A DNA stretch of 19,403 nucleotides from positions 1 through 19,403 of the forward strand of contig JAYENL010000295.1 in the NCBI GenBank assembly GCA_034722055.1. Direction: 5' to 3'. Below are positions 3,001-15,000 of this stretch, piece by piece (positions within the stretch are counted from its first letter, which is position 1; each line of letters begins with the position of its first letter). Source of the DNA: Armatimonadota bacterium. Its GTDB lineage: Bacteria; Armatimonadota; Zipacnadia; Zipacnadales; UBA5352. Position numbers: made by a program.

Positions 3001-6000
3001 GAGTGCGCCACCGCCCAGGTCGCCCCGACGCTGACGGACGTGCTACAGCTCGTCCACCGAACTAGTGGTGACTTGCGCAATTCCGCCTATGTTGACGACG
3101 AGCGCACTCAGCGCTTAGTCTTGGTGGTGTTGAGGATGTGCGGCATCTCCGGTGGAGGGGCCGCCGGGCGCGCAGCGCCCGGTGAGGCCTGTGACTGAGA
3201 CTTCGTAGAAGTCTCCCAGCGAATAGGCCTCAGGTTCCACCCCGGCCCGGCACGTGGCCCTACGCAGGGCCGAAAAGGGGCGCAGCGGGGGCGCCTGCGC
3301 TACTTAACCAGTGGGCCGGGGTGGAACCTGAGCGGTGCGTTCGGGAACGCACCGCTCACCGGAGACGCTACGCGTCTCTCCCCGCCCCCACAGCTCGCCC
3401 GCTCGCTTCGCTCGCGGCGGCCCCTCCATGGTGGGCGCGCGTCTTGTCGGCACGCAGGAAGGTACGCGAACTTCTGCGACTCAGCACTGGCTCGCACAGG
3501 CTCTTCTCACTGTGTGGCATCCGTCCGCACTTCCCACAGATGGAGCGGCCATTGTGTGCCAGCCGGCGAGGTCCTGCACCCTATTCCTCTTCGCCACCCT
3601 GCACAGCTTCATCGCCAGCGGCTCTCCCTCTCCCACGCTGCTCGCCGCCGATGGCCTCCGCCAGTATGGCCTCCATATCGCGTGCCACAACGCCGGGCGA
3701 GTAGTGCTCGTCAACGGCCTCAGCGCCGGAGCCGGCCAGGCGGTCTGCCTCCCCGGCATCATCCATCAGCCCCGCCAGCGCCGCGGCAAGGGCCTCGGGC
3801 TCCTCGGGCTCAAAGAGCACGCCCCCGCCGGTCAGCTCCATCATCTCCGGGAAGATGCCCTCCTCCGGCACCACCACCGGCAGGCCCGCGGCCATCGCCT
3901 CCAGCGCCGTCGTGCCCAGCGCCTCCCGTTGGATGCTGAGCTGGCAGAAGGCGCTCAGCGAGTGCAGCAGGGCGATCTTCTCATCAAGCGGCACCTCGCC
4001 GAGGTGCTCGAAGCGATCCCCCAGGCCGGCCCGGCGCACGTCGCGCCGGATCTGCCCCCAGTAGCGCCTGCTCAGCACCTGGCCGGCGACGCGTAGCCGG
4101 AAGTCGCGGTCATCCTCGGCCAGCAGCCGGCAGGCCTCCACCAGCACGTGCAGGCCCTTGCGCGGCGTGATCACCGACAGGTAGCCGATGATGAACGGCT
4201 CCACCGCACGTGGCCGGTGGCGCCGGAGCCTCTCGGCGTCCACCGCCGAGCGCACAACCGCCATGCGCGCCGGCTCCACGTCCAGGAATCCCGCCATCTG
4301 CCCGGCGTATGCGTGGCCCGGAGCGACGAAGCGATCCACCGACCGCGCGTTGCGCCGGATCAGCTTCACGGCCTCCGACCGGTGCGGCTCGGGGATGCCC
4401 TCGATGAACCCGTCCTCCCCCTTCACCTCGCAGACGACCGCCACTGCCAGCCGGCGCTTGACCTCAGGCGCGATTCCCGACAGCATCGAGTTGGTGATGC
4501 TCACCACGTCCGGGCGCGCCTCACGCTCGAGAAAACCCACCAGGCGGTCGAGCTGGGCGCGCTGGCGTCCCTGGGCGCCGGCCAGCACCGACACGGTCAT
4601 GGGACCGAGCTGCGAGGCCGTGGTGCTGACGGCGAAGCGTGAGACGAGGCGCAGCAGGGCGGGATGGTCGAGGGCGCGCGTGATGAAGCGCGGCAGGCGC
4701 GCGAAGAGGCCGGAGAGCTGCTCCAGGCGGGCGTTGATGGCTCCCATGTGCACGTTCCTGACGGGCAGCACGTGGTCGCCCTCGATGCGCAGCGGCGTGT
4801 ACAGCGGCACGATCTGCACCTGGTGGCCGCGGGCCATCAGCGCGCGCGCCATGGCCGCGTCACGGGCGCACGCCCCGCAGTACATGCTCGCCGCGCCGGC
4901 GGCGAGGTGCACGATGCGCATCAGCCCTCTTCCCCCACCATCGACTGCATCAGCGCCAGGGAGGCGATGCCGTAGTAGGTGTACTCCACGTCGGCGCCCG
5001 CGTCCGATGGCGAGGCGCCGAAGCCGCCCTGCGGCCGGGCCGCCGAGCGGATGAAGCGGGCCAGGGCAGGCAGGTCCAGCGCCGCCAGCGATCCCAGCAT
5101 GACCAGCGTCAGCAGGCCGGTGAAGCTGGAGAGCAGGTCGCCCTCCGGTGCGTCACGGTGGGCGCGGAGGCCCCCGTCGTCGGCTTGCATGCCGGCCACG
5201 AAGTCGGCCGCGCCCCGGGCCGCGTCGGCCTCCAGGCCGCCGCGTATCAGCAGCACCCCGGCCGCCGCGGCGGTGGCGTTCGTCTGGGCGCGGTCTGAGT
5301 CCCCACGCTCGACGTAGCCCCCGGAGGGCCGCTGCAGAGCCTGCAGCGCGGGCACGGGATCCGGCACGTCAGGCGCCACCTGCTCCAGCATCTGCACGCA
5401 GAGCGATCCCAGGAAAGTACCGTATGCGCTCAGCTCACCCGAGCAGGACGCGAACCCCCCGTCCGACAGCGACTGCCGCCGGACCACCTCCGCGAGATGG
5501 CCGCGGTCGATCCTGGGGACCAGCGAGCGCCGGCGGAGGAGCCGATCGATGCTGAGCATGCTGAAGGCCTCCAGCAGATTGTCGATGCCCGCAGGGATCT
5601 GTCCCAGGAAGCCCTTCGCCGTGGTCTCGAACGCCGCCGACTGCGGCGCGACCAGATCCAGCGCTCTGAGAGCGAAGTCCGTGTAGTAGAGGTCGGCCGG
5701 CCCCTCCCGGCCCGGGAAGCCGCCGCCGGGCGCCTCCTGAGCCTCGACCCATGCCGCCTGCGGGCCGATGAATCCCTCACCCAGACCGTGAGCGCCGCTG
5801 CGGAGGATGCCATCCACCAGGTCCAGGTAGCCCACTGTCACGCCCCCGGCTGCGCGGCGGGACGCTCCCGGAGGATCGCCCTGACCAGGAAGCGCAGCAG
5901 CTCGCCGATAGCGTCCGGGCGGGCGTCGTCGGCCAGCTCCCCGCATCTCATCTTCAGGCGGTCCACCAGCACCCGGGCCTTCTCGAAGGCCCCCAACTCC

Positions 6001-12000: not shown

Positions 12001-15000
12001 CCAATTACGACCCGAGCCTGAGGCGCCTGCTGCCTCAAGCGCGCAATGCGCGCCATCAGCTCGCGCACCAGCCGCCGGGCGTAGATCTCTCCGCCGGCGA
12101 TGGCGGTCATGGTCGTGGAGCTCATGCCCAGCCCGCAGGCCTCGCCGGCGCTGACCGCGATGATGCGCGTGTCCGGGCCGACGTGCTCCGAGAGGCGGGT
12201 GGGATGCACCACCACCACATCATCATCCGCGAAGCCGTCCGAGAGCAGGGACGCCTCCACGCGCCGGAGGCCCATGGGCGCCAGGCAGGTCTGCGGCGTG
12301 GGGGCCAGCAGGCGGTCGAGGATCGGCCGCGGCGTGGTTGTGGTCTGGCTGGCCGCCAGCATCCCGGCGAACAGCGTGCGGTGATCCGCCATCAGGATGC
12401 GGTCCGCGGTGAGTACGATGGGCGTGCCACGACGCCTCACCGGCCGCCACCCCCCGGTCCCCGCTGGCCGGTGGCGCGGTCCAGGGCGTCGATGAGCGCG
12501 TCGATCTCGGCGTGGACCGTGGACTCCTCCTCGCACTCGCCGGCGGCCTCTGTAGCGCGGCCACACTCCTCACAGATGACCGCGCCGGCGCGGGCGAACG
12601 CGGCGTCCTCCGCACCGGGGACCTCGCCGCACACCGGGCATCGGCGGCCGGTGCGCACGTAGAACATCCGCCGCGCCGCAGCGTCGGGCTCCATGCATGT
12701 GCCCGGCGCGCCGGCGATGGCCGGCTCGTCGCACAGCGGAAACATAATGGCCCCGTGGGGGCAGATGCGGGCGCAGGCGGGGCAGCCAGGCTTACACAGG
12801 TCCGGGCTCGTCGCCACCACCCGAGCCGCCTTGTCCCTCTCGTAGACGCCGAAGAGGCAGAACTGCAGACAGTGCCCGCAGCTCGTGCATTGCGATCGGT
12901 CCAGGACCGGATACCACCGTGCAGGGGTCTCGTCCTCGATCTCGCGGAGCCGCCCCTCACCCTCGGCCGGGCCCAGGGCCTCGCTGATGGCAGAAAGCGC
13001 CTCGCCCGCTGATTCCGCCGCGCCGAGGTCGATAGCGCAGCGAAGCTCACCCTGCACGCCGCGGTCGCGCAGCACGCACTCTGCCGGCCGGGGATGCAGC
13101 CAGGAGGCGACCGCCAGCGGACCCTCGAGGGAGCGTAGCTCCGGCCAGACGGCGCTGTGCTCAGTCAGATGATAGAGGTGCGGAATCAGGATCACGTCAC
13201 GGCCGGCGCTGCGGCACCGTGACGCGATGTGGTCCTCCAGGACCCTCCGGTCGGGATGCTCTCCGCGATGCCGGGACACGATCACCGTCGGCCTCTCCGC
13301 CACAACCTGTCACCCCACCGATCTCCTCACACGCGATAGCTGCCACGCCGCGATCGCCGGCGCGACGGTGCACACACAATACCGCGAGCGGACGCTTTTG
13401 TCCAGCCACCCCTCGCACGTCGGTCCGTGCGACGCCGAGCGCGTCGTCATACCTCACCACGCCGATGAACTATGCGCACAGCCATCGCGTCACCATGTGT
13501 ACTGGACCGGCTCTGCGCGAGGGCGCCGGCTTCCCAGCATGGAAAGGGTCGGTGGGCCCGTACGGAGGTCGGGCGTCCCTGCGCCCGACGCGGGCCGAGA
13601 GGCCCGCATTCGTTGGGATGCCTTCGCAGGCCCGGTCGAACGAGAGTCGCGCTTCGCGCGACGGCTGGCCTAGGCAGGCCGGCGCTCCGTACGACGCTGA
13701 GCCAACGTCAACCGGGCTGTGGCCGCGGAAAGAGCCGCCAAGGCGCCTCCGGGCGCCCTTGGCCGGCGTTCTGCCGACACTGCGGATGCGCGCCCCAGGA
13801 CGGCTGCAGCCTGCAGCTTGACGGGCTGACGCGCCCGGAATACTATGTCGCACAACCGCTCCCATCTCGGGCCCCCGAGGAATCCATGGGGAACAGCACT
13901 AGCCAGGACAAGCGTCTGCCCCATCGCCGCGTCCCGTCCACGGTCGAGGACGAGCAAGACGGGGTCGAGGCTCCGTCAGGGACGGGGCCAGCGGAGAGCC
14001 CGAAGAGCAGTGGAACTGCACACACGCTGGCGATCGCAATCCCCGCAGTGCTCGGCTTCATCGGCGCAGTCTTGATCGGCCTGTGGCTGCTCAGCGACAG
14101 ACAGCCGGTGGGGGTGGAGCCCCGGACGCCGCAGGAGCACACGCCGGCGGCCAGAGCGCAGGGGCAGCCCGCCCCCAGCCCGGCGGCGGCCACCGACCAG
14201 CCGGCGGGCGGAGAGGGCGGCACCGGTCAAGCTGCCGGCGCGCAGCCCGGTCAGCGCCGGGCTCAGGCGAGCACCACGCAGGCGTCCGGCCCGGCTCCGG
14301 CTACCACGCAGGGCGGCGGGAGGTGGCCGTGGTTCCGGGGCGTCGGCCGCGACGCCATCGCTGACGAGGAGGTGGGGCTGGCACGAAGCTGGCCGGAGGG
14401 CGGCCCGCGCAAGCTCTGGTCAAAAAAGATGCTGGGGCCCGGCCACGCCGGCGCCGCCATCCTGGGCGGTCGCGTTTATGTACTCGACTACGACCTCGGG
14501 GCCCGTGCCGACGTGCTGCGCTGCATGTCGCTGCAGGACGGCAGCGACATCTGGAAGCAGTCCTACGCCGTGCAGATCAAGGACAACCACGGCATCTCTC
14601 GCACCGTGCCCGCCGTGACCGAGCAGTTCGTGGTCTCCCTCGGCCCCATGGGGCACGTCACCTGCGCGCGCGCTGACAGCGGCGAGATCATCTGGCAGAT
14701 CGACCTGAAGCAGAAGTACGGCACCAAGATCCCGGGATGGTACGCCGGCCAGTGCCCGCTGATCGATGACGGGAAGGCTATCGTGGCACCGGGCGGCCAG
14801 GCCCTCATGATCGCAGTGGATTGCGCCTCCGGCCAGGTGGTGTGGCAGACGCCCAATCCGCGGGGGTGGCAGATGACGCACACATCCGTCATGCCGTGCA
14901 CTCTGGGCGGCCGGAAGGTCTACGTCTACACCGCCAGCGGCGGCATCGTGGGCGTGTCCCCCAGCGACGGCTCCCTGCTGTGGGAACAGCCGGGGTGGAG

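What a model noticed while it worked through the whole genome (the two positions that open the first line are those of the whole stretch)
4921..13285. Six-gene SHC-like terpene cyclase operon without any squalene synthase
An operon of ferredoxin-like protein, radical-SAM-like protein, DxDD-bearing SHC-like cyclase, beta-propeller, DUF116-polyprenyl synthase fusion and a second prenyltransferase-repeat protein is conserved in fixed order. No Sqs/HpnC/HpnD was found, so it probably builds a polycyclic terpenoid from a non-squalene precursor.
Evidence so far: Cyclase in 34 of 79 class genomes; same gene order in all 9 loci checked, two of them cut by contig ends. SQS_PSY is present in only 5 of those 34 and absent here; controls ring. 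Motif PDADDTA present. The DUF116 fusion has 4,316 homologues, including Planctomycetota.
(Added by a program. Inside this text positions count along the whole contig: contig position 1 is position 1 of the stretch shown here. "Call 12" and the like, gene names such as g00115 and contig names such as C1 are that model's own, and its searches are not shown. The text may have been shortened before it was handed on; [...] marks where a part breaks off. The agent that wrote the report below was given it as the finding of a first reader that could run no searches.)

Follow-up and report, generated by a model that had tools for sequence, protein, structure and literature searches.

The report
Orphan terpene-cyclase pathway with interchangeable radical enzymes
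These genes are one copy of a widespread, still uncharacterised bacterial pathway that probably builds a ring-shaped isoprenoid lipid without squalene, and it appears to need a radical enzyme that is either a relative of the archaeal lipid ring-forming enzymes or an unrelated substitute, which gives a concrete parts list for finding the unknown product.

Summary
The operon is real but has seven genes: a GT4 glycosyltransferase overlaps the sixth. The counts hold: cyclase in 34 of 79 class genomes, SQS_PSY in 5 of those 34. The cyclase belongs to the published 'SHC-like' clade of unknown function; the non-squalene idea is in print (PMC7306690).

In 81 Planctomycetota genomes, DUF116-synthase, barrel protein and ferredoxin each occur in 20 of 21 cyclase genomes and in 0-1 of 60 others, even when unlinked. 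Twenty of 21 carry exactly one of two radical SAM families with different domain architectures; none has both, and 0 of 60 have either (one cut-off set afterwards). The window's enzyme is a full-length homologue of archaeal GDGT ring synthase (26% to a GrsA orthologue) in its own clade. SQS_PSY is independent of the cassette (13/21 vs 28/60).

Best reading (0.5): an O2-independent route cyclising a head-to-tail polyprenyl chain, with an obligatory radical C-C step. The product is unknown. The scan noted this operon and the Grs likeness before on other DNA; the either/or radical slot was not in the six notes I saw.

The parts
13376..13404 (-). sigma-70-like promoter match upstream of the operon (a second match at 13818-13846 faces the divergent operon)
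   Evidence: 2 found in 3000-14000 against 0.4 +/- 0.6 in shuffles; consensus match only
12437..13303 (-). dedicated 2x[4Fe-4S] ferredoxin-domain protein (start GTG 13303 or 13285); core; inferred electron donor
   Evidence: Fer4 hits; 8 invariant Cys in 23 loci; found in 20 of 21 cyclase genomes and 0 of 60 others
10950..12440 (-). Grs-family radical SAM enzyme with a B12-binding-type N-terminal domain, 496 aa ('rSAM-A'); core slot
   Evidence: CxxxCxxC at 223/227/230, the only invariant Cys; model pLDDT 94, nearest folds include B12-rSAMs; 26% identity over the full length to a GrsA orthologue, E 3e-47; 33 of 34 cyclase genomes in the class, 0 of 45 others
9139..10953 (-). 'SHC-like' class II terpenoid cyclase, 604 aa, DxDD intact; core
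   Evidence: profile vs PDB: SHC 2e-41, OSC 2e-20, DMS 9e-18; motifs match the SHC-like row printed in PMC7306690 supp10; DxDD in 119 of 120 homologues
7629..9074 (-). PQQ-type beta-propeller with a signal-peptide-like N-terminus; accessory, class-specific
   Evidence: PF13360; in 14 of 15 class loci but directly after the cyclase in only 6 of 80 GTDB loci; signal peptide judged by eye
5838..7580 (-). DUF116 (7 invariant Cys, flavodoxin-like fold) fused to a trans-polyprenyl diphosphate synthase; core
   Evidence: PF01976 + PF00348; invariant C99, C106, C117, C120, C123, C165, C193 in 25 loci; model pLDDT 92, no close solved fold; 20 of 21 vs 1 weak stand-alone of 60
4921..5841 (-). single alpha6-alpha6 barrel ('PT2') closest to the protein prenyltransferase beta subunit; keeps the Arg/Asp/Tyr motif, lacks the zinc-binding Cys; core
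   Evidence: profile best RabGGTase-beta 2e-20, DMS 4e-17, MstE 8e-6; invariant R45, Y52, Y53, D280, D284, E286, Y287, Y290; 20 of 21 vs 0 of 60
3581..4921 (-). GT4 glycosyltransferase with an N-terminal MYCGxC motif; seventh gene, accessory
   Evidence: PF00534; TGATG overlap; follows PT2 in 10 of 14 class loci; 15 of 80 GTDB loci

Best explanation
An O2-independent pathway to a polycyclic polyprenoid, most likely a membrane lipid, with five core functions. (1) The DUF116-fused synthase makes a head-to-tail polyprenyl diphosphate, probably longer than C20. Family is shown; chain length is inferred from Ala/Ser at the fifth and fourth positions before the first DDxxD, a recalled rule. (2) The cyclase protonates the terminal alkene with its DxDD motif, so no epoxide is needed, and closes the first rings. 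Motif is shown; substrate is inferred from the published sister relationship to head-to-tail polyprenyl cyclases; partial cyclisation is inferred from altered distal cavity residues. (3) The barrel PT2 holds the diphosphate end and ionises it, passing the chain to water or another acceptor (inferred). (4) A radical SAM enzyme, fed by the dedicated ferredoxin and perhaps the DUF116 Fe-S domain, forms a C-C bond at an unactivated carbon: an extra ring or a link between two chains. The need for one radical enzyme is shown by co-occurrence; the reaction is inferred from Grs kinship. (5) In some lineages GT4 adds a sugar. The order of steps 2-4 is not determined.
For: Core genes track the cyclase in 81 Planctomycetota genomes: DUF116 fusion 20/21 vs 1 weak/60, PT2 20/21 vs 0/60, Fdx 20/21 vs 0/60. 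They do so even when far apart in single-contig genomes: rSAM to cyclase about 550 kb in G211, 240 kb in G271, 114 kb in G245. rSAM-A in 5 and rSAM-B in 15 of the 21, none with both, neither in 60 cyclase-negative genomes. In 80 loci the two are in 14 and 20 loci, never together, often in the same slot after Fdx. rSAM-A is a full-length homologue of a Sulfolobaceae GrsA orthologue, and Grs forms C-C rings in isoprenoid chains (PMC13459092 section 11). The SHC-like clade is sister to Lon15/AtoE/Bra4/PlaT2, all head-to-tail substrates (PMC12324236 section 6). The segment lining the distal cavity differs from canonical SHC while the protonation-site residues are kept. No SQS_PSY, no YtpB family and no HpnH above cut-off in the window's genome.
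Against: No product, substrate or expression data. rSAM-A is a separate clade from the archaeal Grs sequences at only 26% identity, below the 30% cut-off used in PMC11868695. Archaeal lipid B12-rSAMs also include methylases and a desaturase (bioRxiv 2025.10.20.683597), so C-C ring or link formation is not implied. The link of rSAM-B to lipid-coupling enzymes (Mss) is recalled, not tested (one search gave no sequence). The rSAM-B count rests on a cut-off set after seeing the result: 15 genomes at E<=1e-149, while 6 cyclase-negative genomes have weaker, longer relatives at 1e-64 to 1e-75, and the window's genome holds two such weak relatives. The profiles were built from cyclase neighbours, G083 is in one of them, and kin are not independent. 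G247 has neither enzyme. The second aspartate motif of the synthase is NDxxD in 47 of 56 scored, so it may not be an ordinary elongase.
Confidence: 0.5

Rival explanations
1. A third route to a squalene-type hydrocarbon: the Fe-S-fused synthase, ferredoxin and barrel strip the diphosphate from two prenyl units, the radical enzyme joins them head to head, and the cyclase cyclises the product.
For: The radical slot is filled by a Grs homologue or by a SPASM-like family. DUF116 has 7 invariant Cys. No SQS_PSY in 29 of 34 class carriers. Anammox and some Desulfobacterota have SHC without HpnCD/Sqs, an open question (PMC7306690 section 12). A Bipolaricaulota cluster lists DUF116 near SHC, HpnH and a polyprenyl synthetase with no squalene synthase (bioRxiv 2025.11.21.689855, legend).
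Against: 13 of 21 carriers have SQS_PSY, 7 of them two copies, yet keep the cassette. G086 and G090, with canonical anammox-type SHC, lack the cassette genes. The stand-alone DUF116 near anammox SHC sits directly after def-fmt in the loci read, a housekeeping block that is also far from SHC in other genomes. The distal cavity segment differs from SHC.
Confidence: 0.17
2. Same cyclised polyprenyl core, but the radical enzyme only decorates it (methylation, desaturation or adenosylation, as HpnP/HpnH do for hopanoids) and forms no ring or cross-link.
For: B12-type radical SAM enzymes on archaeal lipids include methylases and a desaturase. The best fold match of rSAM-A is the methylase MgmA. rSAM-B hits the HpnH model weakly (1e-7, far below cut-off).
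Against: rSAM-B shows no B12-binding domain, so B12-dependent methylation cannot be the shared reaction. Near-obligate presence (20/21; 33/34) fits a core step better than a decoration.
Confidence: 0.15
3. The product is a meroterpenoid or carrier-bound redox cofactor: the prenyl chain is moved by PT2 onto an aromatic or protein acceptor before cyclisation, as in merosterol or longestin.
For: PT2 is closest to protein prenyltransferase beta subunits and weakly to MstE. Neighbours in other phyla include a GcvH-like protein (17 of 80 loci), a 179-aa protein of no family (20), CobW, IscS, a thioesterase and an FAD oxidoreductase (6 each). A divergent ferredoxin/NapH-like cluster is linked in the class.
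Against: The 179-aa protein, CobW, thioesterase and FAD oxidoreductase gave no hit in the window's genome, and the 179-aa protein has no Pfam, NCBIfam or PDB match. No UbiA-type gene was among the recurring neighbour clusters that I annotated. PT2 lacks the zinc-binding Cys.
Confidence: 0.13
4. An ordinary hopanoid locus using imported squalene, with unrelated neighbours.
For: SHC is the closest solved relative; the DxDD motif is intact.
Against: 89 bits against the TIGR01507 cut-off of 431; no HpnH above cut-off; near-perfect co-inheritance with four non-hopanoid genes.
Confidence: 0.03

Closest known systems
'SHC-like' / unknown-function clade of class II terpenoid cyclases (PMC7306690; PMC12324236)
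   Same: Same motifs as the Rhodopirellula SHC-like row in supp10, intact DxDD, length within 550-700 aa, adjacent polyprenyl synthase, PVC and Acidobacteriota hosts.
   Different: The passages and supplements that I searched name only the polyprenyl synthase as neighbour: no DUF116, radical SAM or ferredoxin. Armatimonadota are not in the clade description. The five-function core and the two-family radical slot are added here.
Epoxy-polyprenyl cyclases Lon15, AtoE, Bra4, PlaT2
   Same: Published sister clade; head-to-tail C20-C40 substrates.
   Different: They use epoxidised substrates; this cyclase keeps the alkene-protonating DxDD and is coupled to Fe-S and radical enzymes.
GDGT ring synthase GrsA/GrsB (archaea)
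   Same: Full-length collinear homology, 26% to a GrsA orthologue, one CxxxCxxC and no auxiliary-cluster cysteines, as described for Grs.
   Different: Separate clade; bacterial; in a cyclase operon; replaceable by a different radical SAM family. Planctomycete GrsA hits were read in PMC11868695 as candidates for ringed brGDGTs; the 5 seen here among 81 genomes all go with this cassette.
Squalene-hopene cyclase with HpnCDE/Sqs and HpnH
   Same: Fold, QW-type repeats and protonation-site residues.
   Different: Far below the family cut-off, altered distal cavity segment, no linked squalene synthase or HpnH.
Sporulenol pathway (HepS/T, YtpB, SqhC)
   Same: Precedent for an SHC-fold enzyme on a head-to-tail C35 olefin made from a polyprenyl diphosphate.
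   Different: No YtpB family hit in the genome, control rang; diphosphate removal must be done by another part, PT2 or DUF116 being the candidates.
DUF116 / COG1852 (PMC5898192 section 13)
   Same: CxxCxxC Cys-rich flavodoxin-like domain; the fusion to polyprenyl synthetase in Pirellula is already noted.
   Different: Here soluble and fused; its tie to the cyclase cassette is not described there.

Membership tests
SHC-like (unknown-function) cyclase clade | Clade-typical motifs with catalytic DxDD retained | tested here: met
   Motifs match the printed SHC-like row (by eye); DxDD in 119 of 120 homologues
SHC-like (unknown-function) cyclase clade | Polyprenyl synthase in the neighbourhood | tested here: met
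   61 of 80 loci, many of the rest short contigs
SHC-like (unknown-function) cyclase clade | Placement in the published tree, sister to epoxy-polyprenyl cyclases | not tested
   No cyclase tree built; Lon15/AtoE/Bra4 sequences were not obtained
Squalene-hopene cyclase (TIGR01507) | Score above curated cut-off | tested here: not met
   89.4 bits vs 431.1
Squalene-hopene cyclase (TIGR01507) | Conserved C-terminal cavity segment (GFP..FYL.Y..Y) | tested here: not met
   Aligns to YFAALWY-AEDLY: Gly to Tyr, Phe to Trp, one-residue gap, Tyr to invariant Glu; alignment of this segment is of modest certainty
Squalene-hopene cyclase (TIGR01507) | Squalene to hopene activity | not testable with these tools
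   Needs assay; no SHC-like enzyme is in Table 1 of PMC12324236
Grs family (GDGT ring synthase homologues) | Full-length homology to GrsA: >=70% coverage, >=20% identity, E<=1e-40 to both GrsA and GrsB | tested here: inconclusive
   Met against a proxy: P0547 (Sulfodiicoccus acidiphilus; 21 differences in the first 119 positions from the printed S. acidocaldarius GrsA, counted by eye), 26%, E 3e-47 pairwise. GrsA itself and GrsB were not available to a tool
Grs family (GDGT ring synthase homologues) | Rossmann (B12-type) domain + radical SAM barrel, no auxiliary Fe-S cluster | tested here: met
   (PF02310 weak, E 0.008)
GrsA orthologues | Branches within the GrsA clade | tested here: not met
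   The 9 operon enzymes with 16 unlabelled representatives form one side of a branch with support 100, apart from all 11 named archaeal rows (FastTree, midpoint root, no outgroup)
Grs family (GDGT ring synthase homologues) | Forms cyclopentane rings in GDGT | not testable with these tools
   Needs assay
Zn-dependent protein prenyltransferase beta subunit (PT2) | Asp-x-Cys...His zinc ligands | tested here: not met
   The Cys position is an invariant Tyr or a Leu in both candidate repeats; ligand roles recalled
Mss membrane-spanning lipid synthases (rSAM-B) | Homology to WP_129545148.1 | not tested
   Sequence not found with my terms in the supplements; resemblance of the weaker sister family is recalled only
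Hopanoid gene cluster | HpnCD or Sqs, and HpnH | tested here: not met
   genome 92.7% complete

The most novel reading that the evidence does not exclude
Bacteria run archaeal-type radical C-C chemistry on a cyclised head-to-tail polyprenyl chain, giving a new class of polycyclic (possibly cross-linked, membrane-spanning) isoprenoid lipid. Its tricyclic regular-polyprenyl skeleton would be a living source of cheilanthanes (extended tricyclic terpanes), which are used as palaeo-proxies and lack a characterised pathway. Two different radical SAM families were recruited independently for the same step.
Probability: 0.15. Interest if true: 0.92.

Novelty: new variant of a known kind. Interest (0 to 1): 0.72.

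Why it matters
The SHC-like clade is named in PMC12324236 as the key unknown for the evolution of triterpenoid cyclases, and PMC7306690 ties its product to unassigned fossil lipids. A defined minimal gene set (synthase fusion, cyclase, barrel, ferredoxin, either radical enzyme) makes the question testable by expression and by knockouts in cultured carriers (Chthoniobacter flavus and Gemmata sp. IIL30 are among the loci). It suggests that expressing the cyclase alone with squalene may fail. It also offers another reading of planctomycete 'GrsA homologues', which have been proposed as markers of ringed branched GDGTs.

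Tried and rejected
DUF116 as the missing squalene synthase of anammox: DUF116 is in 109 of 121 Brocadiia-class genomes, and in about 17 it lies within 5-9 kb of canonical SHC (read from coordinates). But it is a stand-alone gene of about 150 aa directly after def-fmt, also where SHC is far away or absent (12 of the 16 fetched regions were printed, and the DUF116 ORF was not called by my crude filter in 2 of these). No specific support. Fold search of the DUF116 model: Foldseek best E 0.018, VIA best Z 7.1 to generic Rossmann folds; inconclusive. No solved Grs structure among the listed matches. A search from an archaeal relative (P0363) did not list S. acidocaldarius GrsA in its top 120, hence the proxy. 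No Rfam match, so no B12 riboswitch found in the window. No RNA holder was listed. The PF19086 search rang in no control and is uninformative. The 179-aa neighbour looks chorismate-lyase-like from memory, but no library supported it. The first tree run did not finish; FastTree was used instead. No complex prediction was run, as no binding is claimed. Literature searches that gave no paper describing the full cassette: (mostly listings only; the library lacks most subscription journals; Hoshino & Villanueva 2023 was not read; bioRxiv supplements were not consulted, and figure S10 of PMC7306690 was seen only as extracted text).

Full report
OBSERVATION. The window is a whole contig (G000:C295) of a genome 92.7% complete. 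Its nearest named relatives are Armatimonadota. On the minus strand lie a ferredoxin-domain protein, a radical SAM enzyme, a class II cyclase, a beta-propeller, a DUF116-polyprenyl synthase fusion, a single prenyltransferase-type barrel (PT2) and a GT4 glycosyltransferase. Four of the six junctions are start/stop overlaps and two are gaps of 64 and 48 nt. In 15 class loci chosen for long contigs, Fdx>rSAM>cyclase holds in 15, the propeller in 14, the fusion in 15, PT2 in 14 of 14 reachable and GT4 in 10 of 14.

BEYOND THE CLASS. Eighty GTDB loci of the cyclase come from Armatimonadota, Planctomycetota, Verrucomicrobiota, Acidobacteriota, Hydrogenedentota and Sumerlaeota (the best 80 of at least 615). 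By tblastn the fusion is in 61, Fdx in 35, PT2 in 29, GT4 in 15 and the window's radical SAM in 14; the propeller follows the cyclase in 6. Many loci are short contigs, and this set overlaps the class set in part. A second gene order occurs. A different radical SAM family (rSAM-B, about 400 aa, SPASM-like hits, no B12 domain) is in 20 loci, none of them shared with the 14, and often sits in the same place after Fdx.

GENOME-LEVEL PROFILE. In a sample of 81 genomes from the phylum of G083 (Planctomycetota), 21 carry the cyclase. The DUF116 fusion is in 20 of these and in 1 of the other 60, a weak stand-alone hit. PT2 is in 20 and 0, Fdx in 20 and 0. rSAM-A is in 5, all cyclase-positive. rSAM-B at E<=1e-149 is in 15, all cyclase-positive. 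No genome has both, and G247 has neither. Six cyclase-negative genomes hold weaker, longer relatives of rSAM-B (1e-64 to 1e-75); I separated them after seeing the gap in scores, and the window's genome has two such weak relatives. In the window's class rSAM-A is in 33 of 34 cyclase genomes (the miss has its contig cut inside the cyclase) and 0 of 45 others. The genes stay together even when 100-550 kb apart (G211, G245, G271). SQS_PSY is in 13 of 21 against 28 of 60. Fisher tests give p=4e-18 for either enzyme versus cyclase, 3e-4 for exclusivity and 0.31 for SQS_PSY; these overstate, because kin are not independent and the profiles were built from cyclase neighbours.

THE RADICAL ENZYME. rSAM-A has one CxxxCxxC and no other invariant Cys. 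Its model (pLDDT 94) matches B12-type radical SAM folds and MiaB. Beyond its own family the next relatives are archaeal: named members come from Bathyarchaeia, Nezhaarchaeales, Desulfurococcaceae, Sulfolobaceae and Nitrosopelagicus. The S. acidocaldarius GrsA sequence is printed in a supplement of PMC11186832. A stored Sulfodiicoccus protein differs from it at 21 of the first 119 positions, counted by eye, so I used it as a GrsA orthologue. The window's enzyme aligns to it end to end at 26% (E 3e-47; hhalign 100%). In an unrooted FastTree of 118 rows the operon enzymes lie on their own side of a branch with support 100. It is thus a Grs-family homologue, not a GrsA orthologue. Grs closes rings between unactivated carbons of isoprenoid chains (PMC13459092 section 11), but other archaeal lipid B12-rSAMs methylate or desaturate.

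THE OTHER PARTS. The cyclase keeps DxDD in 119 of 120 homologues and the residues around the protonation site. Its C-terminal cavity segment differs from canonical SHC, and it scores 89 bits against a cut-off of 431. Its motifs match the SHC-like row printed in PMC7306690 supp10. The synthase has Ala-Ser before its first DDxxD where a solved GGPP synthase has Tyr-Ser, which by a recalled rule points to chains above C20; its second motif is mostly NDxxD. DUF116 has 7 invariant Cys and a flavodoxin-like fold without a close solved relative, in line with PMC5898192. PT2 is closest to RabGGTase-beta; its invariant Gly-Gly-x-x-x-Arg...Asp-x-Tyr-Tyr repeat aligns with the repeat that I recall binds diphosphate and zinc, with Tyr in place of the Cys. 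Fdx has 8 invariant Cys. The genome shows no YtpB family and no HpnH above cut-off.

MECHANISM. Shown: gene content, co-inheritance, motifs and family kinships. Inferred: a polyprenyl diphosphate is made, cyclised by alkene protonation without oxygen, released or transferred by PT2, and altered by one radical C-H activation step powered by the dedicated ferredoxin; GT4 glycosylates in some lineages. I put 0.5 on this with a C-C-forming radical step, 0.17 on radical head-to-head coupling to a squalene-type precursor, 0.15 on a decorating radical step, 0.13 on a meroterpenoid or cofactor, and 0.03 on an ordinary hopanoid locus. The coupling idea was tested in anammox relatives and found no support: their DUF116 is the def-fmt neighbour, and two genomes with canonical anammox-type SHC lack the cassette.

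WHAT IS KNOWN. PMC7306690 (abstract, sections 9 and 12, passages, supplement passages) already proposes a non-squalene precursor from the neighbouring polyprenyl synthase. PMC12324236 (abstract, sections 6, 7, 25, passages) calls the clade's function undemonstrated and places it sister to epoxy-polyprenyl cyclases. PMC11868695 (passages, section 18) reports GrsA hits in 94 of 684 Planctomycetota MAGs without assigning a function. Also seen: PMC13459092 (abstract, sections 9, 11), bioRxiv 2025.10.20.683597 (abstract, passages, first part of section 9), bioRxiv 2022.08.15.504015, 2025.11.21.689855 and 2026.01.29.702649 (passages), PMC5898192 (section 13), PMC13547773 (passages), and supplement hits of PMC12107092, PMC11186832 and PMC13159169. 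My searches found no paper on the full cassette or the two-family slot, in a library that lacks most subscription journals. This scan noted the operon five times and the Grs likeness once on other DNA; I had noted the Grs lead, before those look-ups.

VERDICT. A real, well-conserved pathway around a known orphan cyclase. The core idea is published; the defined five-function core and the either/or radical SAM slot are the additions that make it testable. Novelty: new variant of a known kind. Interest 0.72.

Noticed in passing
window 13887-19403 (+): A divergent operon (PQQ-type propeller, NHL propeller, 80-aa peptide, polyferredoxin, NapH-like membrane Fe-S protein, start of another propeller) faces away from the cassette. 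At least four of five tested genes are in place in 12 of 15 class loci, at least one in 14, but it is not seen in non-Armatimonadota loci. Possibly an electron supply or a separate module.
   Followed up: partly
L028, L029, L030 and 17 more loci, directly after the DUF116-synthase (e.g. L066:13661-14200): A 179-aa protein with no Pfam, NCBIfam or PDB match in 20 of 80 loci, nearly all planctomycetes; chorismate-lyase-like from memory only.
   Followed up: partly
L063:3016-6055, L072:3219-6138, L187:6915-9526: GcvH-like protein (Lys kept in an ESSKA-type motif), CobW GTPase and a short Fdx-related gene precede the ferredoxin in several phyla; IscS follows the cyclase in five loci. Suggests dedicated metal-cluster loading or a carrier protein.
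   Followed up: no
G000:C58 (hits near 5696-10907): An ABC ATPase, large permease and propeller similar to those next to the cassette in planctomycete loci (L016, L029, L034, L045, L070) lie together on another contig of the window's genome; may be an export module.
   Followed up: no
L162-L165 (anammox-type genomes): Canonical SHC and an HpnH-like gene lie within about 5-9 kb of the def-fmt-DUF116 block in about 17 genomes of the class; probably synteny by proximity.
   Followed up: yes
G000:C159:9219-10418 and C281:7287-8465; L183-L186: Longer (460-510 aa) relatives of rSAM-B, about 31% identical, occur without the cassette; one sits before a B12-type radical SAM gene (L186). They resemble Mss by recall.
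   Followed up: partly
window 408-1859 (+) and 2630-2890 (+): MATE transporter and cold-shock protein downstream of the operon; a close MATE homologue follows GT4 in one related locus (L006) only.
   Followed up: no
window 3581-4921 (-): The GT4 proteins of the cassette carry an N-terminal MYCGxC motif in 9 of the 16 ORFs scanned (several others were partial), unusual for GT4 and perhaps metal-binding.
   Followed up: no
L055:8331-10016, L071:7788-9089: In two loci an extra prenyltransferase-repeat segment or gene lies between the synthase and PT2.
   Followed up: no
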